A program made the translations under genes and the position numbers. From a virus (Duplodnaviria; Heunggongvirae; Uroviricota; Caudoviricetes), in IMG/VR virus record IMGVR_UViG_2778261297_000006, positions 1 to 42,300 of that record: a stretch of 42,300 nt of DNA; one strand, given 5' to 3'. Below the pieces are notes generated by a model. The model searched no databases. It saw nothing but the letters and a program-made list of their open reading frames with translations, and was not told the origin of the DNA. Of the stretch, positions 1-39,306 are shown one piece after another. Position 1 is the first letter of the stretch. Each line of letters opens with the position of its first letter.

Positions 1-1284
1 TTACTTCTTCGCCTCTGCAACCACTTTACTACCCACGCCGCGGTTATTGTATTCCCACATGCGGTTGTAGTTAGTGTCATTCAGATTGCGCTGTATTTCG
101 TCGTTATCATCTACGCTGCCGGTATTACCCGCAAACGGACGATTAGAGATCACCGCATCGGCCCACGGTTTAGCCGTGTTAAAACCTTCGTTGATGGCGC
201 TATCACGGATCACCACCTGACCGTTGGTATTGGCATCAACATCCAGCGAGCGGCCCAGTTGCGCCACACCATCACCGAAAGCATTGAAACGGCTGTTTAC
301 GGCGAGGAAACCGTAGTAAATGTTGGACAGCGTAGCCGGTGCAAACACATACGCTTCTTGCTGAGTACGTGAGTTCACCACGCGGAATTCGGTGTTATCG
401 AACACCACTGCGCCGCGACCAGAAACGATATCCACATCCCCTTCAATGTAGCTGTTGGTCACCAGCGTACGCGGCTGACGATTCGTTTCCAGACGGTTCT
501 GCACACCGCTGTTGGTGACAAAGAAGGTGTTCTGACGACCGAGAATGTTAACGTTGTTAATCTGTACCTGGTCACCATCAGTACGCAGTGCCACCGCCGG
601 ATGGTTACCTGCATCTACGCTATCGCCCAGCGTGTTTTCGATGGTCAGATTTTGCAGTTGCAGGCCATTGTTTTGTGACCAGAAGACCGCAGAGCAGAGA
701 ACACCGATACTGTCGCTACGTTTGCTCTGGCAGCTATCGTACATATACCACGCTGGTTTACCTGGCATATATTTGCCGCGCGGGTTGACGTCGTGACGCC
801 AGTCGGCAGGGCTCATGCCACCATCAAGGGAAAGCCCAATCTTCACATCAATCGGTTTTTCACCTGTACCGTACAGAGTAATTCCACCCGGAGCGGCAGG
901 GACATATACCGTTCCCTGATACTCACCAGGCATCACGGCAATATACTGGCGCTTGTTGGTACGCTTGATAATTGCCGCATCTACCGCCGCCTGAATCGTG
1001 GTATGCGTTACACCTTGAGTGCCCGCCGGGCCGACAACAAATTCAGGTTGCGCAGGCAGGGTAATCGGGGAAGGATTCCACGCTGCAGCACCTGGTGTCA
1101 GGGATGCAAAATAGTGTTGAGCATCGAAATTCTGCGCTTCTTTTGCCGACAGAATCGGGCGAGAAGAGGTACCAGGCGCGGTTTGATCAGAAGGACGTTG
1201 ATCGGGCGGGGTTGAGCTACAGGCGGTCAGCGTCACGCCAAAAGCCAATGCCAGCGCCAGACGGGAAACTGAAAATGTGTTCAC
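1..1284 (-). CDS. ybhC: Host lipoprotein YbhC (pectinesterase-like / acyl-CoA thioesterase family), complete 427 aa
   Basis: Full-length minus-strand ORF with an N-terminal lipoprotein signal (lipobox LTAC) and beta-helix-like NxG-rich body. Recognised from memory as the gene flanking the lambda attB site in E. coli-type chromosomes; not searched. Confidence 0.8.
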   Translation of the reverse strand: MNTFSVSRLALALAFGVTLTACSSTPPDQRPSDQTAPGTSSRPILSAKEAQNFDAQHYFASLTPGAAAWNPSPITLPAQPEFVVGPAGTQGVTHTTIQAAVDAAIIKRTNKRQYIAVMPGEYQGTVYVPAAPGGITLYGTGEKPIDVKIGLSLDGGMSPADWRHDVNPRGKYMPGKPAWYMYDSCQSKRSDSIGVLCSAVFWSQNNGLQLQNLTIENTLGDSVDAGNHPAVALRTDGDQVQINNVNILGRQNTFFVTNSGVQNRLETNRQPRTLVTNSYIEGDVDIVSGRGAVVFDNTEFRVVNSRTQQEAYVFAPATLSNIYYGFLAVNSRFNAFGDGVAQLGRSLDVDANTNGQVVIRDSAINEGFNTAKPWADAVISNRPFAGNTGSVDDNDEIQRNLNDTNYNRMWEYNNRGVGSKVVAEAKK

Positions 1285-1330
1285 AGGTTGCTCCGGGCTA
1301 TGAAATAGAAAAATGAATCCGTTGAAGCCT

Positions 1331-1345
1331 GCTTTTTTATACTAA
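1331..1345. other. attL: attL core (lambda O sequence GCTTTTTTATACTAA); P'-arm Int/IHF site region extends to about 1420
   Basis: Exact 15-bp lambda core read at 1331..1345, followed by lambda-like P'-arm sequence (cagtcactatcagtcaaaataaaatcattatttg) directly upstream of the int stop. Confidence 0.85.
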
Positions 1346-1418
1346 GTTGTCATTATAAAAAAGCATTGCTTATCAATTTGTTGCAACGAACAGGTCACTA
1401 TCAGTCAAAATAAAATCA

Positions 1419-2489
1419 TTATTTGATTTCAATTTTGTCCCACTCCCTGCCTCTGTCATCACGATACTGTGATGCCATGGTGTCCGACTTATGCCCGAGA
1501 AGATGTTGAGCAAACTTATCGCTTATCTGCTTCTCATAGAGTCTTGCAGACAAACTGCGCAACTCGTGAAAGGTAGGCGGATCCCCTTCGAAGGAAAGAC
1601 CTGATGCTTTTCGTGCGCGCATAAAATACCTTGATACTGTGCCGGATGAAAGCGGTTCACGACGAGTAGATGCAATTATGGTTTCTCCGCCAAGAATCTC
1701 TTTGCATTTATCAAGTGTTTCCTTCATTGATATCCCGAGAGCATCAACATGCAATGTTGTAGGGATGGCAATTTTTACGCCTGTTTTGCTTTGCTCGACA
1801 TAAAGATATCCATCTACGATATCAGACCATTTCATTTCGCATAAATCCCCAACTCGCTGCCCGGTAACAACAGCCAGTTCCATTGCAAGTCTGAGCCAAC
1901 ATGGTGATGATTCTGCTGCTTGATAAATTTTCAGGTATTCGTCAGCCGTAAGTCTTGATCTCCTTACCTCTGATTTTGCTGCGCGAGTGGCAGCGACCGG
2001 GTTTGTTGTTATATGGCCTTCAGCTATTGCCTCTCGGAATGCATCGCTCAGTGTTGATCTGATTAACTTGGCTGACGCCGCTTTGCCCTCGTCTATGTAT
2101 CCATTGAGCATTGCCGCAATTTCTTTTGTGGTGATGTTTTCAAGTGGAGCATCAGGCAGACCCCTCCTTATTGCTTTAATTTTGCTCATGTAATTTATGA
2201 GTGTCTTCTGCTTGATTCCTCTGCTGGCGAGGATTTTTTCGTAGCGATCAAGCCATGAATGTAACGTAACAGAATTATCACTGTTGATTCTTGCTGTCAG
2301 AGGCTTGTGTTTGTGTCCTGAAAATAACTCAATGTTTGCCTGTATTGCTTCAGTAATTGCTATCCTCCTGTCTCTGCCTAATCCGAACTCTTTACCCGTC
2401 CTTGGGTCCCTGTAGCAGTAATATCCATTGTTTCTTATATAAAGGTTAGGGGGTAAATCCCGGCGCTCATGATTTCGCCTTCTTCCCAT
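1419..2489 (-). CDS. int: Tyrosine integrase, lambda Int type (356 aa)
   Basis: 356-aa ORF beginning MGRRRNHERRDLPPNLYIRNNGYYCYRDPRTGKEFGLG, ending next to the att core; matches lambda Int by recall. Confidence 0.95.
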   Translation of the reverse strand: MGRRRNHERRDLPPNLYIRNNGYYCYRDPRTGKEFGLGRDRRIAITEAIQANIELFSGHKHKPLTARINSDNSVTLHSWLDRYEKILASRGIKQKTLINYMSKIKAIRRGLPDAPLENITTKEIAAMLNGYIDEGKAASAKLIRSTLSDAFREAIAEGHITTNPVAATRAAKSEVRRSRLTADEYLKIYQAAESSPCWLRLAMELAVVTGQRVGDLCEMKWSDIVDGYLYVEQSKTGVKIAIPTTLHVDALGISMKETLDKCKEILGGETIIASTRREPLSSGTVSRYFMRARKASGLSFEGDPPTFHELRSLSARLYEKQISDKFAQHLLGHKSDTMASQYRDDRGREWDKIEIK

Positions 2490-6585: not shown

Positions 6586-7065
6586 TTAAATTGCGTGAAT
6601 AGCGTGACGAGGGAAGGGGAGAGTTACTGGTTCCTCGTCTGGGTAGATAGGTTTGTTATGTTTGTGCCACTCGACATGACATGACTTGCAGAGCCACATC
6701 ACATCGGTTGGTTTGCTGTAGTCGCAGTGGTGCGCCTGTGGTTTACATTCTGATCCGCAGCACTCACATTGTGGTGGTCGGATTAGCTTACCGTCGCGCA
6801 AAAAATTACCCACAATGATGTGGGCTTTTCTTTTCCATGGGTTGCTCTGAATGAACCGCTTTTTGGCTGCGTTACACCGTTCTCTTCCGCGTTCCGATGA
6901 TTGATATTCTCTCCTTGCTGATACTCGATGTGGCAATCCAGCGCGTTCTTTGTCGTATTCAGCCAGGCAAGCCCGGCAAGCGGCAGTTAATCCATCTCTG
7001 GATGCTCTTCTGATTTGAAAGTCCCTTTCTTCCTTCTGTTGATGGCATCTTGAGCAGACTTTCAT
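6586..7065 (-). CDS. HNH endonuclease (159 aa)
   Basis: Cys-rich zinc-binding motifs CSRCH, CECCG and CKSCH plus the HHCDY core typical of HNH nucleases; GGAG ribosome-binding site. Confidence 0.8.
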   Translation of the reverse strand: MKVCSRCHQQKEERDFQIRRASRDGLTAACRACLAEYDKERAGLPHRVSARREYQSSERGRERCNAAKKRFIQSNPWKRKAHIIVGNFLRDGKLIRPPQCECCGSECKPQAHHCDYSKPTDVMWLCKSCHVEWHKHNKPIYPDEEPVTLPFPRHAIHAI

Positions 7066-7074
7066 ATTCAGCTC

Positions 7075-7548
7075 CTAGAACGGAATATCCGAATCGTCGA
7101 AGTTCATAGGTGGTTCGCTGTGATTCCCATGCTGCTGAGATTGCTGTCTTTGTTGCTGGCCGTTATTTCGCTGAGGTGAAGACTGTTCATTGCCTCCTTG
7201 CTTGCCACCAAGCATTTGCATGGTTCCACCAACGCCCACGATGACTTCGGTAGTGAACCGATCCTGTCCGCTTTGATCCTGCCATTTTCTTGTCCGCAAT
7301 TTGCCTTCAAGATAAACCTCAGAGCCTTTTCGCAGATATTCGCTGGCAATTTCTGCCAGTTTCCCGTTCATTACCACGCGGTGCCACTCCGTCTGCTCCT
7401 TTTGCTCTCCAGTTTGCTTATCACGCCATTGTTCTGACGTAGCAACTGTAAGGTTTGCAAATGCCGTTCCTGATGGTGAATATCTGATTTCTGGATCATG
7501 CCCAAGGCGACCAATAATGATCACCTTATTTACGCCTCTGCTTGCCAT
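7075..7548 (-). CDS. ssb: Single-stranded DNA-binding protein (157 aa)
   Basis: N-terminus [23 protein letters not shown], Gln/Gly-rich linker and acidic C-terminal tail DSDIPF. Confidence 0.9.
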
Positions 7549-8256
7549 TTATGCCGCCTGTTTTAGCTCGTTAACTCTGATGTTCATTACCTGAACGCAT
7601 TTAGCCTGCGCATCCTCATTGCCAGCCATTAATTGCCAGTCATGCTGATAACGCTCGATGAGTTTTTTCTTGTCAGTTTCTGTTGATGCATAATCGCTGA
7701 AGTCTTTCAGGATTTGTTCGCAGTCAACCGATGGAGATGTCTGGTTGGTATTTTCTGGTGATGGTTTGTTATCTGATGCTGGGATTGCCCATCCCGGCAG
7801 CGATGGAGGGAGCCAGTAAAATCCTGTTCCATCCTTCAGTTTTGCCCTGTGCCACCCCTGTTTTTTATCAAGAGATGTTTGTGCGAAACCTTCCTCAAGG
7901 TTATACAGATACCGACCGATTCCCCACTGTACGGCAGCGCGCTTCATTGCACCGGAACGACCACCTTTGACGGCTTCTACCTGCGTGTTTTCAGCAGCAT
8001 CCCATTTGGTTACCCATTCGGAATCAATCCTGATTGATATGCCGCATTCAACGCCGCCGTTGTTAGGAATATCGCGGTATTCATTGCGCCATCCTGCTTT
8101 GCCACAAACATCGTCCAGGCGTTTCATGATTGCCCGGTTCGTGACATAAGCCAGCACCATAGCCCACACTTTGCCATCGCGTGTTTTACCGCTTTGCTGT
8201 ATTCGCCATTCGATATCTTCAGGGCTGAATGGCTCATCGAATTTATTCAAATCCAT
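7549..8256 (-). CDS. erf: Single-strand annealing recombinase, Erf-like (235 aa)
   Basis: Sits immediately upstream of ssb and downstream of the kil/cIII-like genes, as erf does in P22; the C-terminal part resembles Erf by recall only. Confidence 0.6.
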   Translation of the reverse strand: MDLNKFDEPFSPEDIEWRIQQSGKTRDGKVWAMVLAYVTNRAIMKRLDDVCGKAGWRNEYRDIPNNGGVECGISIRIDSEWVTKWDAAENTQVEAVKGGRSGAMKRAAVQWGIGRYLYNLEEGFAQTSLDKKQGWHRAKLKDGTGFYWLPPSLPGWAIPASDNKPSPENTNQTSPSVDCEQILKDFSDYASTETDKKKLIERYQHDWQLMAGNEDAQAKCVQVMNIRVNELKQAA

Positions 8257-8355
8257 AAATCACCTCAGAATGGACATGGCCCAAGAAAATAACGCTGATT
8301 TAATACTTCGACTCGGGACAAATTAAGGCATACCCGCATTCCTTCGCGGTCGCCA

Positions 8356-8514
8356 TTATGTCGATACCAGAGAGCTTTTTGCGTGTACATGCGCCTCTGT
8401 AACTTGCTCTCCTTCACTGTGGTTGCAAGTGACATGAATATCTCCTTCGTTACCGATTAATTCTTTCATCTGACGAATGAATTCTTCGTCTGACCAGTTA
8501 TCTGTAAAACTCAT
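8356..8514 (-). CDS. Small protein (52 aa) at the position of P22 arf; below the track cutoff
   Basis: Hand-translated as MSFTDNWSDEEFIRQMKELIGNEGDIHVTCNHSEGEQVTEAHVHAKSSLVST; ATGA overlap with the kil-like stop. Confidence 0.3.
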   Translation of the reverse strand: MSFTDNWSDEEFIRQMKELIGNEGDIHVTCNHSEGEQVTEAHVHAKSSLVST

Positions 8515-8663
8515 TTCCTGCGATACCACGGAAGGTTGATAGCTGATTTCATTGCTTTATTTGCTTCAAGCCACATTTTGGAATCACCAATAAATCTGGC
8601 TATTACTGCTTTGTTTTGTGCAGCACGAAGCATCTGGTGATTGATGGCTATTTCATTGCGCAT
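8511..8663 (-). CDS. kil: Kil-like small protein (50 aa); below the track cutoff
   Basis: Hand-translated as MRNEIAINHQMLRAAQNKAVIARFIGDSKMW...; position just downstream of cIII and a FIGD-KM block recalled from lambda Kil. Confidence 0.4.
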   Translation of the reverse strand: MRNEIAINHQMLRAAQNKAVIARFIGDSKMWLEANKAMKSAINLPWYRRK

Positions 8664-8779
8664 AATAAGACCTCAACTCTTTTCCATCCGTCACGTAATT
8701 TACGGGTGATTCGTTCAAGTAAAGATTCATTTAGTTGGAAGGCACCCATGCGAGCGCCTCCCGCGATTGCGTAAATCAT
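8648..8779 (-). CDS. cIII: CIII-like protein (43 aa); below the track cutoff
   Basis: Hand-translated as MIYAIAGGARMGAFQLNESLLERITRKLRDGWKRVEVLLCAMK; the ESLLERITRKLRDGWKR core matches the lambda CIII signature by recall. Confidence 0.6.
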   Translation of the reverse strand: MIYAIAGGARMGAFQLNESLLERITRKLRDGWKRVEVLLCAMK

Positions 8780-8803
8780 GGGTGGTTCCTTATGTTGGTT
8801 TTA

Positions 8804-9772
8804 TTAGTAGGTTATTTTTGTTGCGAATACTTCGCCTTTTACGATGGCTGTTATGATATTTTTAGCAACATCTTCTGATGCGCCAACCTTGATAAGGTCA
8901 GCAAGTATTTTGTTATTTACTTCTTTCCGGTGAGCTTTATCCTTTGCTCTACGCTCTTCTTCTTCCTTGATTCTTTTTTCTTCTGCTATTCTGGCTTGCT
9001 CTTTTGCTTCAGCCTCGCGCCGGATTCGTTCAGCCTCCTCCTGTGCTTTTCTGCGTTCTGCTTCAATTGCTGCCTGCTTTTCTCTTTCAGCTCGTTCTGC
9101 TGCCTCTTTTGCTTCGCGCTGTGCTCGTTGCTCGGCTTCAATGCGTTCACGCTCTGCACGTTCCGCTGCGGCCTTAGCTTCTGCTTCTCGCCTTGCTGCT
9201 GCTTCAATTTCGGCTTTTGCCTTTGCTTCGGCTTCAGCTCTGGCTTTCTCTTCAGCTTCTCTTTTTAAGCGTTCTTCATGCTCTCGCTTTTCCTGCTCCG
9301 CTTTGAGTCTTGCCTCTTCTCTTTGGCGGTCAAATTCGCGATCCATCAAAATCGCTATTTCATGGTCAGACTCAATTTGCTTTGCGAGAGCTTCAGCTGC
9401 TGACTTAGCTTCTTCTTCGGCTTTAATCCGTGCCTGTTCCTCCTCATAATCAGTAAGAGGCTGGCGCGCCTTGGCTTTCAGTTCATCAAGGCGATCACGC
9501 ACTGTCTTGCGGTTAGCATCAATTAGCTTTGGAATTTCCTTCAGTTCAGCAACAAGGTCTTTGCCAAGACCATCGAGATATGTTTTCGTCTGCGCAACTT
9601 TATACGCCAGAGAAGCGATCTCCTTTCTGCCCTTTGCCGTTGTGATATCAGGCACAAAGGACATAACTTCACGTTCAACCTTTTGGAGAATTTCTTCAAT
9701 CTGGTCGGCAGACTGAAATACAGTCATTGCATTTGCTTTTTCAATAACAACTAAATCTGTTACTTCACTCAT
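8804..9772 (-). CDS. Highly charged coiled-coil / single-alpha-helix protein (322 aa from the ATG at 9772)
   Basis: About 170 residues of E/R/A/K repeats between a globular N-terminal and a short C-terminal domain; GGAGG sits 4 nt upstream of the ATG at 9772. The track's longer ORF to 9868 would span a terminator. Confidence 0.6.
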   Translation of the reverse strand: MSEVTDLVVIEKANAMTVFQSADQIEEILQKVEREVMSFVPDITTAKGRKEIASLAYKVAQTKTYLDGLGKDLVAELKEIPKLIDANRKTVRDRLDELKAKARQPLTDYEEEQARIKAEEEAKSAAEALAKQIESDHEIAILMDREFDRQREEARLKAEQEKREHEERLKREAEEKARAEAEAKAKAEIEAAARREAEAKAAAERAERERIEAEQRAQREAKEAAERAEREKQAAIEAERRKAQEEAERIRREAEAKEQARIAEEKRIKEEEERRAKDKAHRKEVNNKILADLIKVGASEDVAKNIITAIVKGEVFATKITY

Positions 9773-9784
9773 ATATCCTCCATC

Positions 9785-9814
9785 AAAAAAAATTGCCCTC
9801 ACACTGGAGGGCAA
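9785..9814 (-). terminator. Intrinsic terminator (minus strand) between the AT-rich gene and the coiled-coil gene
   Basis: Stem ttgccctc/gagggcaa with a 6-nt loop, followed on the minus-strand transcript by a run of eight U. Confidence 0.55.
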
Positions 9815-9916
9815 AGAAGATTTCCAATAATCAGAACAAGTCGGCTCCTGTTTAGTTACGAGCGACATTGCTCCGTGTATTCACTCGTTGGAATGAATAC
9901 ACGGTGCTTATTCATA

Positions 9917-10387
9917 CTAATAAAACACCCAATTTTCTGTTTCTTTGTTGTGTCCAAAGTTATATTCAATATCTGGTGTTGATGTATCAATATTCTTCAT
10001 CCCATCAACAAGAGTTGATACAACAGCCAAATCTTGTTTGATTCTCATCAAATGGTATTTCTTCCGGCGCAATAAACTTTCAATGGCAAGTTTCTTCGTC
10101 GGGAACGCAAAAGATCTTTCTGCATTTTTTGCTACTTTCTTAATTGCATATCTATTTCTCCTTTGTTTCCATTCCTGTAACCACTGATTTGGTGCTGGTT
10201 TAAAATTAACAATCCAATGCGCAGGAACCAACCATGCATAATGCTCTGTCTGATGAAAAGCTATATATTGAAGTGCGAATATTTTGATTCCATCTTCTTC
10301 AACTGTCGCTTGGAATCTCCAGAAAACAGGCATTCCATCATGTTCAGTTTCTGATTCAGGAAAAGGTACGCTCCATGATTTTGTCAT
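9917..10387 (-). CDS. Hypothetical protein (156 aa) in an AT-rich island; candidate accessory cargo
   Basis: Markedly lower GC than flanking genes by eye; followed by an 11-bp perfect inverted repeat (9873..9904) and the terminator at 9785..9814. Confidence 0.55.
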   Translation of the reverse strand: MTKSWSVPFPESETEHDGMPVFWRFQATVEEDGIKIFALQYIAFHQTEHYAWLVPAHWIVNFKPAPNQWLQEWKQRRNRYAIKKVAKNAERSFAFPTKKLAIESLLRRKKYHLMRIKQDLAVVSTLVDGMKNIDTSTPDIEYNFGHNKETENWVFY

Positions 10388-10390
10388 ATA

Positions 10391-10642
10391 TTACTCATCT
10401 CCAATGGCTTTGCTGATTGCTGACAGTGCTTTCGATACTTCATCAGGATAATGGTCATCCCAGTTTTGCTTGTATGCCTTGTTTAGCATCGCTTGCAGAG
10501 CTTCGAGCAAATCAGGAGCTGCCTCCATCAATCTCACATCACCTCGATGGATGGTTGTATCGTCAAACGTGAAATAAACCCCATCATCGTTAAATCCAGC
10601 GCCAACAACATTCCATGGCCTTTTCATTCTTCCTACTGTCAT
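10391..10642 (-). CDS. Hypothetical protein (83 aa)
   Basis: ORF in the early-left operon; no recognised domain. Confidence 0.5.
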   Translation of the reverse strand: MTVGRMKRPWNVVGAGFNDDGVYFTFDDTTIHRGDVRLMEAAPDLLEALQAMLNKAYKQNWDDHYPDEVSKALSAISKAIGDE

Positions 10643-10674
10643 TATTCACCTCTGTTGTTTATGCCAAAGCAAAT

Positions 10675-10917
10675 TTAACCATCAACAAACTCTTCTGGTA
10701 ATTTATCAACCAGTTGATGACTTATTATCAGCCATTTGCCATCCTTCGTTTCGTATGCATATTTCTGGTCTTTTATCATCATGTGTTCGGCTACTGCCCT
10801 AACTGCCTGATCGGTGACATCTTCTCTCTTTCCTACCCACATTCCTTTTTCAGTGTTTAATGTTCCTTGAAAAATACGACCACTTAATGGGCTTGCGCCC
10901 ATAGTTTTTACTCTCAT
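10675..10917 (-). CDS. Hypothetical protein (80 aa)
   Basis: ORF in the early-left operon; no recognised domain. Confidence 0.5.
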   Translation of the reverse strand: MRVKTMGASPLSGRIFQGTLNTEKGMWVGKREDVTDQAVRAVAEHMMIKDQKYAYETKDGKWLIISHQLVDKLPEEFVDG

Positions 10918-10981
10918 GTATCAGTCCTCAAATAAGTGGTTTGCTGCCAAAACAATGAACCATCCGGAAATTCCAGATAGT

Positions 10982-11206
10982 TCATAATTCACTCTTCAAT
11001 ACTTCCAGCTTACTAATCGCCGAAAGATATCCGCGCTGATAGGGCATCATCATTCCTTCGAGCTTGCCACTTCTTAACTCCTCCCTGAGCAATTGTATTG
11101 CTTGATCAATAACCTCTGCCTTAGCGTCCTTTATGGCTTGCTTTCGGGGCTTTGCTTTCTGCTTTGGCAGATTTCTCAAGCATGATGGAATGTATGTCTG
11201 ATTCAT
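10982..11206 (-). CDS. Hypothetical protein (about 74 aa) immediately downstream of N
   Basis: The ATG at 11206 lies 4 nt after the N stop codon (reading order on the minus strand); helical, Lys-rich. Confidence 0.45.
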   Translation of the reverse strand: MNQTYIPSCLRNLPKQKAKPRKQAIKDAKAEVIDQAIQLLREELRSGKLEGMMMPYQRGYLSAISKLEVLKSEL

Positions 11207-11209
11207 CAC

Positions 11210-11593
11210 TTACCTCGCCGTCAGTTGTTTTGATTTCCGGTAGCCTGCCGCGTAAATGGCTACGTTTGGAAGACATACACCAGTTTCTGGTTGCTTATGT
11301 CCAAACTCATTCGCGTACACAATGGCCGCTCGCTCCAGATTGCGTCTGTATTCTTTCTGTTGCCAGATCACGTCCTGTGCCATGAACTTAATTGGCTTAG
11401 CGTCTTCTATGCGCTCAGGCGTTTCGTGAGTACCTTTAGCCTGAATCTGCGCTCTGCTTAGAGTAGGGCGGTGTAATACTTCTGAACTTATTGCTTCTTC
11501 GCGGGCCAGTACGCCGTTAGCTAATGCCTTTGCCTTTAAACGCTCACGACGACGAGAACGTGAATTGCCTTTGAACTGAGTTCTGCGTGTCAT
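11210..11593 (-). CDS. N: Antitermination protein N (P22 gp24 type, 127 aa)
   Basis: N-terminal arginine-rich motif SRSRRRERLKAKA; first gene downstream of pL/nutL; AGGAGG ribosome-binding site. Confidence 0.7.
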   Translation of the reverse strand: MTRRTQFKGNSRSRRRERLKAKALANGVLAREEAISSEVLHRPTLSRAQIQAKGTHETPERIEDAKPIKFMAQDVIWQQKEYRRNLERAAIVYANEFGHKQPETGVCLPNVAIYAAGYRKSKQLTAR

Positions 11594-11854
11594 ATAGACC
11601 TCCTGATGAACTTTGGTGGTGTGGTGGCTGGTAGTCTAGCTCCAGCTTGTTGAGTCTCATTCGGAGGGGTATAACCGGCACCCCAGTGATTTTTCCATGC
11701 GACAACGTGCGCGTTATGGCGGCCTTATCGCCCGCGGCTCCCCATCTCGTCCACGCTATTGCTAGCGTTGGGAGCGCTTCACCGCTCAACAGTAGGTAAG
11801 CACTTGCCAGTGACTAGCTGGCTTCACCACACCCCAAAGTTCACTTTGGTTATT

Positions 11855-11869
11855 GCGCTTTGTCAGCGC
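11855..11869 (-). promoter_or_regulatory. nutL boxB hairpin (P22-type GCGCTGACAAAGCGC on the transcript)
   Basis: The plus strand reads gcgctttgtcagcgc, whose reverse complement matches the P22-type boxB; lies between OL and N. Confidence 0.6.
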
Positions 11870-11940
11870 CGTAGATTCATATTCGAATCGTTGTATATTC
11901 ACCGCCCTGGTGAGTAATGCGTCCTGCTGATGGCTTAAAG

Positions 11941-12023
11941 ATAACTTAGGTTATAGGTGTGGTCAATAACCTAATTTATATTTTATGGTAAATAAGTTAT
12001 AAGTGATGGATAACAAAGGTATT
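11941..12023. promoter_or_regulatory. OL operator cluster with pL (leftward promoter)
   Basis: ATAAC-N4-GTTAT type dyads at 11941..11954 (perfect), 11965..11979 and 12010..12023, the same half-site as in OR. Confidence 0.5.
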
Positions 12024-12152
12024 TTATTTTTGTAAATGTTGCTGATTGATTGGTGTTTGAGGGCTTGCGTGCGGGGTGAAGGTGTTACCTTTGGCTTGAT
12101 GCTTGTCTATGATGAGGATGGTTGATTGGGTGGTGAACGGCAGGAAAAGAAA

Positions 12153-12172
12153 ACCCGGCGCTGAGGCCGGGT
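12153..12172 (-). terminator. Intrinsic terminator ending the cI-side transcript (tImm-like); hairpin is symmetric and may act bidirectionally
   Basis: Stem acccggc/gccgggt with a 6-nt loop; U-rich tract follows on the minus strand directly after the stop codon of the 98-aa gene. Confidence 0.6.
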
Positions 12173-12176
12173 GTTT

Positions 12177-12473
12177 TTAGTCTTTTCTTTTGCTTAGCAT
12201 TTCGTCGATTTCTAAGTCAATACGATATTGATCTATTGCTTTTCTCTCGTTTGGGGTTGGTATTTTATACTGTTCAATTAGATCTGTTGTGTATTTTATT
12301 TCATCTAATGTTATTTTTATATCAGAGAGAATCTCTTTTATATCAATTATATGCTCTTCTTCTTTTGCGCGATTAGAGCTATGTTCAATCATTTGAGATA
12401 GCTTTTTGCTAATGCTTAGCAAAACAAAAAGAATGATGACCAAAACAACAACAAAAACTATCAGAAATTCCAT
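12177..12473 (-). CDS. AT-rich single-pass membrane protein (98 aa) in the rex-equivalent slot downstream of cI
   Basis: N-terminal TM helix EFLIVFVVVLVIILFVLLSI followed by a charged helical tail; GGAGG 6 nt upstream of the ATG; very low GC by eye; terminator immediately downstream. Confidence 0.65.
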   Translation of the reverse strand: MEFLIVFVVVLVIILFVLLSISKKLSQMIEHSSNRAKEEEHIIDIKEILSDIKITLDEIKYTTDLIEQYKIPTPNERKAIDQYRIDLEIDEMLSKRKD

Positions 12474-12513
12474 TATCCCTCCGCACTTCCGTAAGTCTTC
12501 TTCTGATTATCGG

Positions 12514-13221
12514 TTACCAACTATGAGACGACCAGAATACTCTGCCAATAATCCTTACGGTTTCATGAAATTCATCTCTATCCATTACTTCATCCGGGTA
12601 CTCTTCGCGATTTATTGATCTGATTATCACCGATGTAGGGGTGGCGATTAATGTTTTTACTCGTAACAAATCAGACTGGCAAATAGCGTAGGTTTTACCA
12701 TCTCTGATTGTGGTATCTTGCGTGTTAACACCAACAACATCGCCATCGTGAAGGGTTGGTTCCATGCTTTGCCCTACAACCCTAACTAGCTTGGCTGATC
12801 TTTCAGATACTCCCATCTTTTTCAGATAGTGCTTTCTGAAAACCAAAGAGAACTCCGATGATTCCTCTAGCTCGCAGCTACCGCTTCCAGCTGAAAGCGA
12901 AACGTTAAGAAGAGGCAACGCAACAAACTCGTCATCGTTTCTTTTAATGTCTTCCCATACCACAGCTTTTAAAGATGACTCACGGACATTGGATGGTTCT
13001 TCATGTGCACCATCCCTCATTTCACCAATACCAGAACTAAGCCATTCAGGACGCACTTTTAAAGCATTGGCTAATTCAACCATCTTGCGAGATCCGTTTG
13101 TTTTACCGGACGACATCTTCTGTATGGCTGGCTGAGATATTCCAACCATGTCAGCAAGCTGTGATTGTGATACCCCTGCTGAGCTCATGGCTGCATTTAG
13201 TCTTTCTGCGAATGTTTTCAT
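12514..13221 (-). CDS. cI: CI-type prophage repressor (HTH plus LexA-like S24 peptidase domain), about 235 aa from the internal ATG
   Basis: HTH segment SQSQLADMVGISQPAIQKM, C-terminal S24-like VGQSMEPTL block; divergent from cro across operators. Start chosen at MKTFAERL (13221), likely near-leaderless. Confidence 0.85.
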   Translation of the reverse strand: MKTFAERLNAAMSSAGVSQSQLADMVGISQPAIQKMSSGKTNGSRKMVELANALKVRPEWLSSGIGEMRDGAHEEPSNVRESSLKAVVWEDIKRNDDEFVALPLLNVSLSAGSGSCELEESSEFSLVFRKHYLKKMGVSERSAKLVRVVGQSMEPTLHDGDVVGVNTQDTTIRDGKTYAICQSDLLRVKTLIATPTSVIIRSINREEYPDEVMDRDEFHETVRIIGRVFWSSHSW

Positions 13222-13233
13222 ACCCACAAATCT

Positions 13234-13296
13234 ATAACTACGGTTATCCAAAGTAAAATAACAAAGGTTATTGCTATTTTTTATAACTTGAGTTAT
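13234..13296. promoter_or_regulatory. OR operator cluster (three dyads) with pR/pRM
   Basis: ATAACtacgGTTAT at 13234..13247, AATAACaaagGTTATT at 13257..13272 and ATAACttgaGTTAT at 13283..13296, about 24 bp centre to centre. Confidence 0.6.
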
Positions 13297-13332
13297 CTTT
13301 GGTTATAACTAATGACCACAAGAGGTATGCTC

Positions 13333-13557
13333 ATGAATTTAGTAATTCAACGAGCCTTGAAAATTGTCGGTAGCCAAAAGCGCCTTGCCGACAAGTGTGG
13401 TGTAACGCAGCCAGCAGTACACAAATGGCTGAAAGGCGGGTTGGTCTCTCCAGAGAAAGTTACCGCCATCGTTAACGCCACTGGAGGGCAGATCAAGGCT
13501 TACGAAATTCGCCCCGATTTGCCACACCTGTTTCCAAAACCGAATCAGGCAGCATAA
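13333..13557 (+). CDS. cro: Cro-like repressor (74 aa from the ATG at 13333)
   Basis: Small HTH protein divergent from cI; AAGAGG 7 nt upstream of the ATG at 13333. Confidence 0.7.
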   Translation: MNLVIQRALKIVGSQKRLADKCGVTQPAVHKWLKGGLVSPEKVTAIVNATGGQIKAYEIRPDLPHLFPKPNQAA

Positions 13558-13564
13558 GTAACAC

Positions 13565-13610
13565 CGCTCTTTTCACAATGGACATTCGTCCTACGTCGCT
13601 GACAAAGCGA
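13565..13610 (+). promoter_or_regulatory. nutR (boxA-like CGCTCTTTT plus boxB hairpin TCGCTGACAAAGCGA)
   Basis: boxA-like at 13565..13573 and boxB at 13596..13610 with the same GACAAAG loop as nutL. Confidence 0.55.
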
Positions 13611-13695
13611 GTCCCAATATATCTGACCAACTAAGGCCATATGCGTTTCCACGCATACCTTTCAGCTAAATATTCACTATTGGAAATATTAAGAA

Positions 13696-13992
13696 ATGAC
13701 ACAAGCAAGTTACAGCAAGCCAACACAGCGAGAAATTGATCGCGCTGAAACTGATTTACTCATCAACCTGTCAACGCTTACCCAGCGCGGTCTGGCAAAG
13801 ATGATTGGCTGTCATGAATCGAAGATAAGCAGAACGGACTGGAGATTTATTGCTTCGGTCTTGTGTGCTTTCGGAATGGCATCAGACATCAGTCCGATTA
13901 GCAGGGCTTTTAAGTATGCGCTTGATGAAATCACAAAGAAAAAATCCCCGGCCGCCACCGAGGATTTTAAGCAAATTGATATGCAATTCTGA
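13696..13992 (+). CDS. cII: CII-like transcriptional activator (98 aa)
   Basis: C-terminal KKKSPAATEDFKQIDMQF resembles lambda CII (KKRPAATE...QIQMEF, by recall); position after cro/nutR. Confidence 0.75.
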   Translation: MTQASYSKPTQREIDRAETDLLINLSTLTQRGLAKMIGCHESKISRTDWRFIASVLCAFGMASDISPISRAFKYALDEITKKKSPAATEDFKQIDMQF

Positions 13993-14024
13993 GGTCATTA
14001 CTGGATCAATCCACAGGAGTCATT

Positions 14025-23673: not shown

Positions 23674-25150
23674 TAACCTGAGCGACGAAGAGCAAATCGA
23701 ATTGCTCGAGCTACTCGAAGAAGAAGAGAACTACCGGAACACACACCTGCTATATGAATTTACGCCATACAGCAAACAGCGTGAGTTCATCGACGCCGGA
23801 CATGACTATCCAGAGCGATGTTTTATGGCTGGTAACCAGCTTGGTAAGTCATTTACTGGTGCTGCTGAAGTCGCGTTTCACCTTACCGGGCGTTATCCTG
23901 GCACAAAAGGCTATCCTGCTGATGGTAAATATGGTGGGGAGTGGAAAGGTAAGCGTTTCTATGAGCCTGTTGTCTTCTGGATTGGCGGCGAGACAAACGA
24001 GACTGTAACCAAAACGACTCAACGCATCCTGTGCGGTCGTATCGAAGAGAATGATGAGCCAGGCTACGGTTCCATACCTAAAGAAGACATCATTAGCTGG
24101 AAGAAGTCTCCTTTCTTTCCGAACCTTGTTGATCATCTTCTGGTTAAGCATCACACAGCTGATGGCGTTGAAGATGGCATTTCAATCTGCTACTTCAAAC
24201 CATACTCGCAAGGCCGTGCTCGCTGGCAGGGTGACACAATCCACGGCGTGTGGTTTGACGAAGAGCCACCATACAGCATTTATGGCGAAGGGCTTACCCG
24301 TACCAACAAATACGGGCAATTCTCAATTCTGACGTTTACCCCGCTGATGGGGATGTCTGACGTTGTTACCAAGTTCCTGAAGAATCCCAGCAAGTCGCAG
24401 AAAGTGGTCAACATGACCATCTATGACGCTGAGCACTACACAGACGAACAGAAAGAGCAAATCATCGCATCCTATCCCGAGCATGAGAGAGAGGCGCGTG
24501 CTCGCGGTATTCCTACGATGGGTAGCGGGCGAATCTTCCAGATACCGGAAGAGACGATTAAGTGTCAGCCGTTCGAGTGTCCTGATCACTTCTACGTAAT
24601 TGGCGGGATGGATTTCGGATGGGATCACCCGCAGGCGCAGGTTCAGCTTTGGTGGGATAAGGATGCAGACACAATCTACGTTTCACGCGTGTGGAAGGCG
24701 AAAGAAAAGACAGCCGTTCAGGCGTGGGGAGCCGTTAAACCATGGGCGCATAAAGTGCCAACCGCATGGCCCCATGACGGAAACCAGCACGAGAAGGGCG
24801 GCGGTGAGCAGCTCAAAGGGCAGTATGCGGACGCTGGATTTATGATGTTGCAGGAGCATGCGACATGGCCTGATGGCGGTAATGCTGTTGAGCCTGGAAT
24901 CACTGAATTGCGCGACATGATGCTAGATGGTCGCTTCAAGGTATTCAACACCTGTGAACCATTCTTTGAGGAGTTCCGCCTCTATCACCGTGATGAAAAC
25001 GGGAAAATCGTCAAGCTTAACGACGACGTGCTATCAGCCGTTCGCTATGCATACATGATGCGCCGCTTCGCCAAAATGATGCGCGACATCAAAAAACCAA
25101 AAGAGAAAAAGATACCAGCCCCAATCAGGCCCATCGCACGGAGAACTTAA
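23651..25150 (+). CDS. Terminase large subunit, P22 gp2 type (499 aa)
   Basis: Size and position match P22 gp2; GTG start overlapping the small-subunit gene. Confidence 0.9.
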
Positions 25151-37461: not shown

Positions 37462-37782
37462 TTAGCGGTTGATGGTTGCTTTTTTCGGGTCATACCATCT
37501 CGGCCATTCTTTCAGGAATGGGAATGAGTCGGGTGCGTGGTTCTTTTTGTACGATTTAAGCAGCCTTAACCGCTCAATCGCACACTCATAAACCTCTTGT
37601 TGCCCTGTAGTCATCTCGGTCCATGAAAGGTGATCCATTGATAAGACAACGTTTTCAGCTTCTTTTATGAGGGCGTTTTTATTTCTCACCGCAGCAGCAT
37701 GGCTGACAGAGCAATCCTGCCATATTCTTAAAATCCAAATAGCTAAGCAGATGAAAAAAATGGTAGATAGCGATATATACAC
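37462..37782 (-). CDS. Membrane-anchored hypothetical protein (about 106 aa from the GTG at 37782)
   Basis: AAGGAGG 5 nt upstream of the GTG; N-terminal TM helix YISLSTIFFICLAIWILRIW. The track's longer ORF to 37998 would overlap zincin-like gene B on the other strand. Confidence 0.45.
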   Translation of the reverse strand: MYISLSTIFFICLAIWILRIWQDCSVSHAAAVRNKNALIKEAENVVLSMDHLSWTEMTTGQQEVYECAIERLRLLKSYKKNHAPDSFPFLKEWPRWYDPKKATINR

Positions 37783-37812
37783 ACCAACCTCCTTAGTTTT
37801 TCGCAGGATACC

Positions 37813-38178
37813 ATGAAAAAAGTAAACATTGGAAACGTACCAAAGATGCTCGTACCGCTCTTTGAGAGCGGTACGATTGTGTTTTGCAGAGACTTTCCAG
37901 AATGGCAACGCCTGCATCAAAAACTTGGCGTGGACGTGCAGGACTCGGATGCCAACGGAGCGTCTCATACAATGAGCAGCGAGAATGGTGTTTTGCATGT
38001 GATAGGCGTGTTCAATGGCAAACTATCTACCATTGCCCATGAGTGCGCTCACATGGCATTCGATATCTGCTCAAGGGTCGGTGTTGATGTTGAACCAGGA
38101 AGAGCCAACGAGACTTACTGCTACTTAATGAGCAGGCTTGTTGAGTTCTGCGAGCGACATATCAAAAAGCCGGAGTGA
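37813..38178 (+). CDS. Minimal zincin-like protein B (HExxH...E, 121 aa); paralog of 22523..22912
   Basis: HECAHMAF and ANETYCY motifs shared with copy A; on the late-operon strand directly after the gp16 homolog. Confidence 0.6.
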   Translation: MKKVNIGNVPKMLVPLFESGTIVFCRDFPEWQRLHQKLGVDVQDSDANGASHTMSSENGVLHVIGVFNGKLSTIAHECAHMAFDICSRVGVDVEPGRANETYCYLMSRLVEFCERHIKKPE

Positions 38179-39132: not shown

Positions 39133-39306
39133 ATGATAGTCAAGTCAGACGCACCAAAGTACCCTTTGCGCATCCCATTAGAGGTTAAGTTAGCAATCGA
39201 GAAGTCAGCGAAAGAAAATGGTCGCTCAATAAATACCGAGATGGTAATGCGGTTAGTGGATAGTTTAAGGCGGGATAGTTCTAAAGGTAATCTAGCAAAA
39301 AGTTGA
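39133..39306 (+). CDS. arc: Arc-like ribbon-helix-helix repressor (57 aa)
   Basis: [32 protein letters not shown] resembles P22 Arc (recall); GGAGG 4 nt upstream of the ATG at 39133. Confidence 0.7.

What the first reader, a model, noticed from the sequence alone, without database searches (positions are those of the whole stretch)
9785..10387. AT-rich early-operon gene bracketed by a perfect inverted repeat and its own terminator
The 156-aa ORF (9917..10387, minus) has much lower GC than the operon around it. It is followed by an 11-bp perfect inverted repeat (ccgtgtattca ... tgaatacacgg, 9873..9904) and then an intrinsic terminator (9785..9814) that would stop transcription just before the coiled-coil gene unless N-antiterminated. 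That is the signature of a horizontally inserted cargo gene. It lies where lambda carries ral and sieB-type host-interaction genes. The protein is not recognisable to me.
Basis: partly seen in the sequence, partly recalled or inferred. Interest (0 to 1): 0.5.

Follow-up and report, generated by a model that had tools for sequence, protein, structure and literature searches.

The report
Swappable phage gene beside PreS sRNA
The AT-rich gene is a swappable early phage gene of unknown function (the same as HK97 gp45 and 933W L0079), and the hairpin and terminator behind it belong not to the gene but to the conserved lambda small RNA PreS, so the locus is largely already known.

Summary
The 156-aa ORF is at 9917-10387(-). 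It has 36.3% GC against 47.4% for the window. The 11-bp perfect inverted repeat is at 9873-9904. The intrinsic terminator is at 9793-9814, followed by eight T.

The two downstream features are not the gene's own. The 135 bp at 9773-9907 are the lambda ral-ea10 intergenic region. Sf6 annotates them as boundary sequence bsq4 plus a tL2A-homologous terminator. They encode the Hfq-dependent sRNA PreS/LPR1. The window copy differs from lambda at 1 of 86 nt and keeps 12-nt and 11-nt complementarity to the dnaN leader.

This element occurs in 2238 of 5426 complete E. coli genomes. The ORF accompanies it in only 563.

At least 17 unrelated gene families occupy the position directly upstream of the hairpin. 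They include Ral and the published abortive-infection trigger orf184. The ORF is therefore a real exchangeable cassette in the ral slot. It is 98-99% identical to HK97 gp45 and 933W L0079.

The protein is basic, under purifying selection, and confidently modelled. It has no match in Pfam or PDB. Its function is untested. I infer an early accessory protein that binds nucleic acid or a host factor.

The parts
9917..10387 (-). ORF156, a 156-aa protein identical in family to HK97 gp45, 933W L0079 and the phi24B hypothetical protein. It is an exchangeable cassette in the ral slot.
   Evidence: ORF. (phrog_1636, E 8.6e-112). (98-99% identity to 933W L0079, HK97 gp45 and phi24B). (36.3% GC). (pN 0.21 against pS 0.77-0.90; dN/dS 0.14 for the one unsaturated pair, Bas81/NX263). 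(AlphaFold2 pLDDT 95.6).
9873..9904 (-). Conserved hairpin. It is an 11-bp perfect DNA inverted repeat and a 14-bp RNA stem with a CAAC loop. It lies immediately 5' of the roughly 88-nt PreS species.
   Evidence: fold -22.4 kcal/mol; nearly invariant in 112 of 119 IMG/VR loci, and replaced by an unrelated hairpin at the same place in 7. 1563 of 1568 stem cells pair in the leftward-RNA sense, against 1345 of 1568 on the other strand.
9785..9872 (-). Homologue of the PreS/LPR1 sRNA (88-nt form). It has a 5' stem-loop whose loop is the likely processing site for the roughly 68-nt form. It also has a single-stranded seed and the tL2a terminator.
   Evidence: 1 difference in 86 nt from lambda; it is the lambda ral-ea10 intergenic region; preprint 10.1101/2024.10.31.621285; the Sf6 record annotates bsq4 and a tL2A-homologous terminator.
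9812..9838 (-). PreS seed region, sRNA positions 35-61. It is complementary to the E. coli dnaA 3' end and dnaN leader.
   Evidence: perfect complements of 11 nt (target -27..-17) and 12 nt (target -47..-36) relative to the dnaN AUG. Only 16 of 2000 shuffles give any perfect complement of 10 nt or more.
9785..9814 (-). Intrinsic terminator, the tL2a homologue and the PreS 3' end: stem 9814-9793 and U8 at 9792-9785.
   Evidence: 8 pairs, 5 G-C, loop of 6, T8. (Sf6 annotation 'homology to phage lambda; tL2A'). (the LPR1 3' end is tL2a).
9773..9784 (-). Shine-Dalgarno region (GGAGG at 9781-9777) of the next gene. It is the last part of the conserved element.
   Evidence: Homology with 933W, PA28 and lambda runs up to the start codon of the downstream gene.
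8804..9772 (-). Downstream gene: a coiled-coil protein, homologue of Sf6 gene 33, annotated 'TolA' in some records. It is one of at least 4 alternative families found after PreS.
10391..11209 (-). Three further cassettes stacked between N and ORF156: orf83 (10391-10642), a DUF7446 gene (10675-10917) and orf75 (10982-11209).
   Evidence: In one search the orf83-like and DUF7446 families are the nearest ORFs of at least 40 aa upstream of the hairpin in other phages (DUF7446 37 nt away; orf83-like 160-192 nt away). The mEp234 record describes its 83-aa ORF in this position as similar to VT2-Sap20; I did not align the window's orf83 to it.
11210..11593 (-). N antiterminator, the start of the pL operon that transcribes all of the above.
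   Evidence: PF25694 N_peptide, E 2.1e-15. The census shows the same N-terminal sequence upstream of ORF156 in 5 loci.

Best explanation
The finding is two independent modules that happen to lie side by side in the leftward early (pL) operon of a P22-like prophage integrated at att-lambda.

Module 1 (9773-9907) is backbone, not cargo. It is the lambda ral-ea10 intergenic element. It encodes the Hfq-dependent sRNA PreS/LPR1. The 3' end of PreS is the tL2a intrinsic terminator, and its seed pairs with the host dnaN leader to raise synthesis of the DNA polymerase sliding clamp and support lytic replication. That function was shown for lambda in the preprint. It is inferred here from near-identity.

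The inverted repeat is an RNA hairpin that abuts the 5' end of the roughly 88-nt PreS species. I infer that it marks the processing boundary: after cleavage that releases PreS, it would cap and stabilise the 3' end of whichever cassette mRNA lies upstream. That would let cassettes be swapped without disturbing production of the sRNA.

Module 2 (9917-10387) is an exchangeable cassette in the ral slot, one of at least 17 unrelated families found there. It has no promoter of its own. It is co-transcribed from pL with N, so it is made early in lytic growth and not in the lysogen. This is inferred from spacing and the lack of a promoter match.

The protein has a fold with no PDB counterpart. It is basic (pI 9.25), with a K/R-rich segment at residues 61-130 that contains the long helix 98-130. 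My committed guess is that it is a non-essential early accessory factor. It would bind nucleic acid or a host protein to protect or promote phage DNA transactions, as a counter-defence or host-takeover function like its slot-mates. It is not a DNA mimic.

Rough probabilities:
- Identity of module 1: 0.95.
- Cassette status of the ORF: 0.9.
- Early, pL-dependent expression: 0.8.
- Role of the hairpin as stated: 0.4.
- Molecular role of the ORF as stated: 0.35.
For: Module 1:
- 1 of 86 nt differs from lambda.
- Alignment with lambda, phage 21, Sf6, 933W, PA28, mEp234 and 683R2 is almost invariant from the hairpin to the next gene's ribosome-binding site.
- In lambda the match lies between Ea10 and Ral.
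- The Sf6 record annotates 'tL2A' homology and 'bsq4 boundary sequence'.
- The preprint places LPR1/PreS between ea10 and ral with its 3' end at tL2a. It reports roughly 88-nt and 68-nt species, Hfq dependence, lytic-only expression, dnaN activation and alaS repression.
- The window copy has 12-nt and 11-nt perfect complements to the dnaN leader.
- The element is in 2238 of 5426 E. coli genomes and 327 phage records.

Hairpin:
- The intergenic RNA folds with z = -7.0.
- From the foot of the hairpin to the last U is 86 nt in lambda.
- 7 of 119 loci carry an unrelated hairpin in the same frame.
- Pairing is better in the leftward-RNA sense: 1563 against 1345 of 1568 stem cells.

Module 2:
- Homology with 933W and others runs from the ORF's start codon through the PreS element to the next gene's start codon. 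In lambda, Sf6 and others, which lack the ORF, homology stops at about 9907. That places the joint between the ORF's stop codon and the hairpin.
- At least 17 upstream families occur in the slot, including Ral (31 loci) and ORF156 (19 loci).
- Partners on both sides vary.
- The ORF has low GC.
- No sigma-70-like site lies upstream.
- The gap to the upstream gene is 3 nt here and 8 nt after N elsewhere.
- Selection is purifying.
- The model has pLDDT 95.6.
- The protein is basic, and 59 of 64 family members have pI above 8.
- Relatives sit in early recombination, methylase or excision operons.
- Silas et al. treat the ral region as an accessory region. Its orf184, which is a cassette family in my census, triggers the gop-beta-cII abortive-infection system.
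Against: - There are no experimental data on ORF156 or any homologue. All database names are 'hypothetical'. Literature searches for L0079, HK97 gp45 and phrog_1636 found nothing relevant.
- It was not among the 200 accessory genes screened by Silas et al..
- Inferring function from slot-mates is weak. The slot also holds genes of quite different character, for example the membrane protein Sf6 gp34.
- For the hairpin, no compensatory double substitutions were seen. Three kinds of single change keep pairing and three break it. The stem is nearly invariant, so sequence-level conservation, for example as a DNA site or recombination substrate, is not excluded.
- The PreS preprint does not say how the 5' end arises.
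- My placement of the 5' end rests on band sizes from northern blots.
- Hfq binding and dnaN regulation were not, and could not be, tested for this copy.
Confidence: 0.75

Rival explanations
1. One reading: the ORF, the inverted repeat and the terminator form one autonomous inserted unit, a moron-like cargo gene that brought its own hairpin and terminator.
For: In Stx phages such as 933W, the ORF, hairpin and terminator are co-linear. They are conserved as one 617-bp block at about 97% identity. The ORF is AT-rich.
Against: The hairpin and terminator occur without the ORF in about 75% of the phage records and E. coli genomes that carry them. They occur behind at least 16 other gene families. 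Lambda itself has them behind ral. There is no promoter of its own. The joint lies at about 9907, between the stop codon and the hairpin.
Confidence: 0.04
2. ORF156 is a nucleic-acid-binding factor serving the phage's own replication, recombination or gene regulation. It might be a regulator or a DNA-end or ssDNA-associated protein, rather than a counter-defence protein.
For: The family is basic (pI median 8.97), with a K/R-rich segment at 61-130 and a long helix at 98-130. Homologues occur in virulent phages too. They sit beside ParB-like, RusA, RecE, RecT, YqaJ, SSB and replication-initiator genes. In Bas81 and NX263 it is the first gene of an operon with ParB-like and RusA genes.
Confidence: 0.3
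3. ORF156 is a prophage-expressed defence or superinfection-exclusion gene, like sieB or rexAB, that protects the lysogen.
For: It lies in the region where lambda has sieB. It is AT-rich cargo. It is common in prophages of pathogenic E. coli.
Against: There is no promoter-like site upstream, and it is tightly packed behind pL-operon genes. There is no meaningful PADLOC hit; the best is E 0.018. No hydrophobic transmembrane-like stretch is visible in the sequence (read directly). Homologues are present in virulent phages, which argues for a function in the lytic cycle.
Confidence: 0.1
4. The inverted repeat works at the DNA level or by a different RNA mechanism. It could be a palindromic protein-binding site, a hot spot for the recombination that shuffles cassettes, or an RNase III site that creates the PreS 5' end, rather than a passive 3' stabiliser.
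For: It is perfect as DNA in this window. Its sequence is almost invariant across 112 loci, with no compensatory changes. It lies exactly at a mosaic joint that Sf6 annotates as a boundary sequence. Unrelated cassettes share GAATAAGCAC just 5' of it. A 14-16-bp stem could be an RNase III substrate; this last point is from my own knowledge and was not tested.
Against: In nearly all other copies the DNA palindrome is imperfect. There is a T where the window has C, which gives a G.U pair only in the leftward RNA. The common version is 5.6 kcal/mol more stable in that RNA sense. Seven loci keep a hairpin but not its sequence.
Confidence: 0.2

Closest known systems
Lambda PreS (LPR1) sRNA with the tL2a terminator (Silverman et al., bioRxiv 10.1101/2024.10.31.621285)
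   Same: It has the same position: after the ral-slot gene and before the ea10-slot gene in the pL operon. 85 of 86 nt are identical. It has the same terminator hairpin with a U-tract and the same dnaN-complementary seed.
   Different: One substitution at the base of the terminator stem turns a U.G pair into U-A, and the U-tract is 8 rather than 6. The upstream gene is ORF156 rather than ral. Expression, Hfq binding and regulation were not tested for this copy.
HK97 gp45, 933W L0079, the phi24B hypothetical protein and PHROG 1636
   Same: It is the same protein at 98-99% amino-acid identity and the same 156-aa length. In those phages too it lies between N and the PreS element.
   Different: Nothing of substance. 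In this window three extra cassettes separate it from N, and the downstream gene is the coiled-coil Sf6 gene 33 type rather than ea10 or gp17.
Lambda Ral (PF11058), the anti-restriction protein
   Same: It occupies the identical genomic slot, directly upstream of the hairpin and PreS element. It is expressed early from pL and is non-essential accessory cargo.
   Different: There is no sequence or profile similarity. It is 156 aa against 66 aa. The ral cassette carries an additional terminator-like hairpin 5' of the conserved hairpin, and the ORF156 cassette lacks it. No anti-restriction activity is known for ORF156.
Morons of lambdoid phages (promoter-gene-terminator units; Juhala et al. 2000, from my own knowledge)
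   Same: It has atypical low GC. It shows presence/absence polymorphism among otherwise related phages. It sits between backbone genes.
   Different: It has no promoter of its own. The terminator behind it belongs to PreS. It is read as part of the early operon.
The accessory region containing ral in Silas et al. (bioRxiv 10.1101/2023.04.06.535777); orf184 of mEp213
   Same: It is in the same hypervariable slot. orf184 (AFM76385.1) belongs to a 107-aa family that my census finds 43 nt upstream of the same hairpin.
   Different: ORF156 is unrelated in sequence and was not among the 200 genes tested. The triggering of gop-beta-cII was shown for orf184 only.
Sf6 'bsq4' boundary sequence (record AF547987; Casjens et al. 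2004, from my own knowledge)
   Same: bsq4 (Sf6 24156-24268) spans the terminator to the 5' edge of the hairpin. That edge corresponds to window position 9907, the mosaic joint found here.
   Different: When bsq4 was annotated it was a conserved recombination boundary with no known product. It is now known to encode PreS.

Membership tests
PreS/LPR1 sRNA (lambda) | It lies in the pL operon between the ral-slot gene and the ea10-slot gene. | tested here: met
   The lambda match lies between the Ea10 and Ral coding sequences. The window element lies between ORF156 and the Sf6 gene 33 homologue, downstream of N.
PreS/LPR1 sRNA (lambda) | At least 92% identity to lambda LPR1 with no more than 3 gaps. 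This is the preprint's own conservation criterion. | tested here: met
   85 of 86 nt are identical and there are no internal gaps. The whole 135-bp element is 94.8% identical to lambda.
PreS/LPR1 sRNA (lambda) | The 3' end is a GC-rich hairpin with a poly-U tail, the tL2a terminator and Hfq-binding module. | tested here: met
   There is an 8-bp stem with 5 G-C pairs followed by U8. The Sf6 record labels the homologous site as tL2A.
PreS/LPR1 sRNA (lambda) | The seed is complementary to the region upstream of the dnaN start codon. | tested here: met
   There are 12-nt and 11-nt perfect complements at -47..-36 and -27..-17 of MG1655 dnaN. Only 16 of 2000 shuffles reach 10 nt.
PreS/LPR1 sRNA (lambda) | Hfq binding, lytic-cycle expression, and up-regulation of DnaN. 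| not testable with these tools
   This is experimental. It was shown only for lambda.
Moron (autonomous promoter-gene-terminator insert) | A promoter of its own upstream of the gene. | tested here: not met
   There is no sigma-70-like site on the minus strand between 10387 and 11900. The gap to the upstream ORF is 3 nt here and 8 nt after N in other phages.
Moron (autonomous promoter-gene-terminator insert) | A terminator of its own that travels with the gene. | tested here: not met
   The terminator is present without the gene in about 75% of carriers and behind at least 16 other gene families.
Moron (autonomous promoter-gene-terminator insert) | Atypical base composition, and presence/absence among related phages. 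| tested here: met
   36.3% GC against 47.4% for the window, in the lowest 1.1% of windows. The ORF is in 82 of about 327 element-bearing phage records.
HK97 gp45 / 933W L0079 family (PHROG 1636) | A full-length profile or sequence match. | tested here: met
   phrog_1636 E 8.6e-112 over residues 1-156 of 156. 98.7% identity to HK97 gp45 and 99.4% to 933W L0079.
Ral anti-restriction family (PF11058) | A match to the Ral profile. | tested here: not met
   No Pfam family matches at E up to 0.1. None of the 64 family members hits it either.
DNA-mimic anti-restriction proteins (Ocr/ArdA type) | A strongly acidic protein that mimics the DNA surface. | tested here: not met
   pI 9.25. Residues 61-130 have 17 K/R against 5 D/E. 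59 of 64 family members have pI above 8.
Known anti-phage defence proteins (PADLOC-DB) | A match to a defence-system profile. | tested here: not met
   There is only a chance-level hit, Cas1_II at E 0.018 and 12.4 bits.
Accessory region in the sense of Silas et al. | Variable gene content between conserved flanks, with known counter-defence genes among the occupants. | tested here: met
   At least 17 families lie upstream of the conserved hairpin, including Ral and the orf184 family. The paper places orf184 in the same accessory region as ral.

The most novel reading that the evidence does not exclude
The ORF156 superfamily comprises PHROGs 1636, 13631 and 25384. It has 87 cluster representatives and occurs in temperate and virulent phages of many Proteobacteria and Bacteroidota. 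It may be a new fold of basic, nucleic-acid- or host-factor-binding early protein that acts as a counter-defence or replication-protecting factor of a so far undescribed type. Separately, the hairpin 5' of PreS may be a dedicated insulator or processing element. It would fix the 5' end of the sRNA and stabilise whichever cassette mRNA lies upstream. That would explain why this joint is the preferred point of cassette exchange in lambdoid phages.
Probability: 0.25. Interest if true: 0.6.

Novelty: already known. Interest (0 to 1): 0.3.

Why it matters
The result mainly corrects an annotation. A hairpin and terminator that look like the tail of an inserted gene are in fact a conserved regulatory RNA gene. 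That sRNA reprogrammes host DNA replication, and it is carried by about 40% of complete E. coli genomes, including those with Stx prophages.

Two open points remain:
- How the PreS 5' end is made, and whether the conserved hairpin insulates it from the ever-changing upstream cassette.
- What HK97 gp45 / 933W L0079 does. It is carried by many Shiga-toxin phages, is under purifying selection, and has a confidently predicted fold with no PDB or Pfam counterpart. It sits in a slot whose characterised occupants are an anti-restriction protein and an abortive-infection trigger. It is a reasonable candidate for anti-defence screens.

Tried and rejected
Family and structure searches on ORF156:
- Pfam, NCBIfam and PADLOC scans gave nothing.
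- Pfam on all 64 family members gave nothing.
- PDB sequence and profile searches gave only chance hits with E of 0.13 or worse.
- The first AlphaFold2 run, on a 20-sequence alignment, was poor (pLDDT 61.7). It was replaced by a 64-sequence run (pLDDT 95.6).
- Foldseek against the PDB gave a best E of 0.81.
- The afdb50 library was unavailable.
- BFVD gave only uncharacterised phage proteins.
- hhalign of the family against Sf6 gp34, another occupant of the slot, showed no relationship (probability 0.6%).
- A second large homologue search with the profile returned only 'hypothetical' names.
- The search for related loci with the alignment failed because no conserved stretch was available.

RNA and literature:
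- Rfam gave no family in 7000-14000 even at E up to 1, so PreS is not in Rfam 15.
- Literature searches for L0079, HK97 gp45 and phrog_1636 found nothing relevant.
- Martinsohn et al. 2008 mentions ea10 and ral only as sites of strain construction.
- Whole-molecule RNAduplex of PreS against dnaN was uninformative: 98 of 300 shuffles did as well. It was replaced by a search for exact complements.

Ideas considered and dropped:
- A promoter for PreS inside the hairpin. No hexamer pair with plausible spacing is visible by eye in the sequence, and the scan found none.
- An analogy with integron attC sites for the cassette-plus-hairpin layout. There are no hairpins between the other stacked cassettes and no integron integrase.
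Full report
CONTEXT

The window is a P22-like prophage.
- A lambda-type attL core (GCTTTTTTATACTAA, about 1332-1346; recognised from my own knowledge of the lambda att site) lies at the left end, next to a pectinesterase-family host ORF.
- A lambda-type integrase with an arm-binding domain follows at 1419-2489.
- A P22-type tailspike head-binding domain is at 40348-42300.
- A sar RNA is at 39301-39367.
- The finding lies in the leftward early operon. On the minus strand the order is cI (12514-13251), N (11210-11593, PF25694), three small ORFs, the 156-aa ORF, a coiled-coil gene, small ORFs in the cIII/kil position (Sf6 genes 32 and 31 sit here in the homologous Sf6 map), a Rad52-family annealase and SSB.

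The ORF is at 9917-10387(-) and is 156 aa.
- Its GC content is 36.3% and its GC3 is 29.3%. The window mean is 47.4%. The ORF is in the lowest 1.1% of 471-bp windows.

The 11-bp perfect inverted repeat is at 9873-9883 and 9894-9904.
- As RNA it is a 14-bp stem with a CAAC loop, at -22.4 kcal/mol.

The terminator is an 8-bp stem at 9814-9793 followed by T8.
- The whole intergenic RNA folds far better than shuffles, with z = -7.0.
- Perfect inverted repeats of this size are about ten times more frequent in the window than in Markov simulations: 3 loci against a mean of 0.25.
- Both elements lie downstream of the gene, so they follow it rather than bracket it.

WHAT THE NON-CODING PART IS

Megablast of the region showed two nested levels of homology.
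- Stx phages (933W, H-19B, BP-4795, Min27, phi24B), HK97 and some P22-like phages match 9773-10389. That is the ORF plus everything up to the next start codon.
- Many more phages match only 9773-9907. These include lambda, phage 21, HK022, Sf6, CUS-3, HK544, VT2-Sakai and Salmonella P22-like phages.
- In complete E. coli genomes the short element is in 2238 of 5426 genomes. Both parts together are in 563.

In lambda the element is the intergenic region between ea10 and ral.
- The Sf6 record annotates it as 'terminator; homology to phage lambda; tL2A' and 'bsq4; boundary sequence'.
- An alignment of eight phages is almost invariant from the hairpin to the ribosome-binding site of the next gene. 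The flanks are unrelated.

A literature search on tL2, ral and ea10 led to Silverman et al. (bioRxiv 10.1101/2024.10.31.621285). That preprint reports the following:
- This very region encodes the Hfq-dependent sRNA LPR1, renamed PreS.
- Its 3' end is tL2a.
- It is about 88 nt and is processed to about 68 nt.
- It is made only in the lytic cycle.
- It activates dnaN translation by base-pairing upstream of the start codon, and it represses alaS.
- Deleting its seed lowers phage DNA yield and spontaneous phage release.

A 2025 review repeats this.

The window copy differs from lambda at one of 86 nt, at the base of the terminator stem.
- It contains perfect 12-nt and 11-nt complements to positions -47..-36 and -27..-17 of MG1655 dnaN. 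Only 16 of 2000 shuffles give any complement of 10 nt or more.
- PreS is not in Rfam 15.

THE HAIRPIN

In lambda, the distance from the base after the hairpin to the last U of the terminator is 86 nt. The roughly 88-nt species therefore starts at the foot of the hairpin. This is an inference from band sizes. The preprint does not say how the 5' end arises.

I examined 119 IMG/VR loci that contain an exact 43-nt PreS core.
- 112 carry the hairpin almost unchanged.
- Nearly all have a T where the window has a C. The DNA palindrome is therefore normally imperfect, while the leftward RNA keeps a G.U pair.
- Overall, 1563 of 1568 stem cells pair in the RNA sense, against 1345 of 1568 on the other strand.
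- The common version is 5.6 kcal/mol more stable in that sense.
- Three kinds of single change keep pairing and three break it. No compensatory double change was seen.
- Seven loci carry a completely different hairpin (CCTATAGCAGA-TTTRCGAG-TCTGCTATGTG, -14 kcal/mol) in the same frame. It lies between the shared GAATAAGCRCC on the 5' side and the PreS start AGCAATG on the 3' side.

A structure kept while its sequence is replaced, together with the strand asymmetry, points to a role in the pL transcript. I propose two roles. It marks the boundary at which PreS is released, and it then protects the 3' end of the upstream cassette mRNA. This is inferred, not shown. RNase III processing or a DNA-level role remain possible.

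THE ORF IS A CASSETTE IN THE RAL SLOT

For 110 loci I took the ORF of at least 40 aa that ends within 200 nt upstream of the hairpin. Clustering gave at least 17 unrelated families:
- Ral: 31 loci.
- ORF156: 19 loci, 5 of which are my reference loci.
- A family of 135-207 aa: 14 loci.
- An orf83-like family: 12 loci.
- Sf6 gp34-like: 8 loci.
- DUF7446: 4 loci.
- Others, each in fewer loci.

The sample is the first 120 hits of a scan, so these proportions are rough.

ORF156 follows at least five different N proteins, often at 8 or 58 nt. It precedes at least four different gene families beyond PreS. In this window it is the last of four stacked cassettes.

One family in the census is 'orf184' of Silas et al. 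(mEp213 AFM76385.1).
- That study places it in the same accessory region as ral.
- It shows that orf184 triggers the gop-beta-cII abortive-infection system.
- ORF156 is not among their 200 tested genes.

No sigma-70-like site precedes ORF156. It starts 3 nt after the upstream stop codon. It should therefore be transcribed from pL with N and made early in lytic growth.

Where ORF156 directly follows N, the first intrinsic terminator after pL would be tL2a. ORF156 and PreS could then be made before N acts. This is my inference.

THE PROTEIN

It is 98-99% identical to HK97 gp45, 933W L0079 and the phi24B protein. It matches phrog_1636 end to end.
- Close homologues (55-84% identity) are confined to Enterobacterales prophages, and all are named hypothetical.
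- A profile search of 1.84 billion cluster representatives found 87 proteins. Most are 130-155 aa. They share a G(I/L), HET, K..K....RFAF.T...A...L..RK..Q..HL.R.L pattern.
- None of these hits Pfam. They fall in PHROGs 1636, 13631 and 25384, all of unknown function.

With that alignment AlphaFold2 gives a confident model, with pLDDT 95.6 and pTM 0.83.
- It has three long antiparallel strands (19-55), two short helices, a short strand, a 33-residue helix (98-130) and an ordered C-terminal tail.
- BFVD finds 12 uncharacterised phage proteins at E below 1e-3. They include proteins from N4-like and other virulent phages of Erwinia, Achromobacter, Delftia, Rhizobium, Tenacibaculum and Cellulophaga.

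The protein is basic, with pI 9.25.
- Residues 61-130 carry 17 K/R against 5 D/E.
- 59 of 64 relatives have pI above 8.
- This excludes an Ocr/ArdA-type DNA mimic and favours nucleic-acid binding.

Synonymous sites are saturated (pS 0.77-0.90) while pN is 0.21-0.23. The one unsaturated pair gives dN/dS of 0.14. It is a real gene under purifying selection.

Relatives sit in early operons.
- Some lie next to xis and int, downstream of RecT.
- Some are the first gene before ParB-like and RusA genes.
- Others lie near a ParB-like gene, RecE and a replication initiator.
- Others lie near RdgC, YqaJ, SSB and cytosine DNA methylases.

VERDICT

- The gene is exchangeable cargo in the ral slot.
- The hairpin and terminator are backbone. 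They belong to the known sRNA PreS.
- The function of the protein is untested. I commit, at about 0.35, to an early accessory factor that binds nucleic acid or a host protein and serves counter-defence or protection of phage DNA transactions. The main rival, at about 0.3, is a role in the phage's own replication, recombination or regulation.
- As a finding it is largely already known. The residual interest lies in the uncharacterised fold family with no PDB counterpart, carried by many Stx phages, and in the unexplained conserved hairpin at the PreS boundary.

Noticed in passing
window 39301-39367 (-): There is a sar antisense RNA (Rfam RF00262, 71.6 bits, E 4e-13). It indicates a P22-type immI (ant) region near the tailspike gene.
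   Followed up: no
window 1-2489: This is the left prophage end. The lambda att core GCTTTTTTATACTAA lies inside a 12-bp perfect inverted repeat at 1330-1365. It is flanked by a pectinesterase-family host ORF (4-1284) and a 356-aa lambda-type integrase with an Arm-DNA-binding domain (1419-2489). The element is therefore a P22-like prophage sitting at att-lambda.
   Followed up: partly
window 12153-12473 (-): orf98 (12177-12473) has the lowest GC of the operon, 29.6%. It has an N-terminal hydrophobic helix. It lies directly downstream of cI, in the rex slot, and is followed by a bidirectional terminator at 12153-12172. It has no family hit. It is a better candidate for lysogen-expressed cargo than the gene in the finding.
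   Followed up: partly
IMG/VR loci L018, L033, L056, L071, L075, L114, L121 (region 5' of the PreS core): An unrelated hairpin (CCTATAGCAGA-TTTRCGAG-TCTGCTATGTG) replaces the usual one at exactly the same place. It lies between the conserved GAATAAGCRCC and the PreS start AGCAATG.
   Followed up: partly
window 10391-11209 (-): Three more small cassettes are stacked between N and ORF156: orf83, a DUF7446 gene and orf75. In other phages the DUF7446 family is the nearest upstream ORF, 37 nt from the PreS hairpin. The orf83-like family is the nearest ORF of at least 40 aa, 160-192 nt from it.
   Followed up: partly
IMG/VR loci, 10 nt 5' of the hairpin (corresponds to window 9905-9914): Several unrelated cassettes end with the codons GAA TAA, which lie inside the shared motif GAATAAGCAC. 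The recombination joint therefore lies within their last codon and stop codon.
   Followed up: partly
loci L138, L139, L140, L136 (DNA methylase) and L132, L133, L135 (ParB-like): Distant ORF156 homologues often have a DNA methyltransferase nearby: cytosine-type (PF00145) in three of four prophage contexts examined, and an annotated DNA methyltransferase in LIET2 (L136). Others have a ParB-like protein nearby (Bas81, NX263 and VLCpiS10a). The sample is too small to call this an association.
   Followed up: partly
window 10955-10985 (-): A 14-pair terminator-like hairpin with a weak T-tail lies between orf75 and the DUF7446 gene, inside the N-to-PreS cassette stack.
   Followed up: no
window 37850-37876: A 12-bp perfect inverted repeat (CGTACCGCTCTT/AGAGCGGTACG region) lies within or next to the minus-strand ORF 37462-37998.
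   Followed up: no
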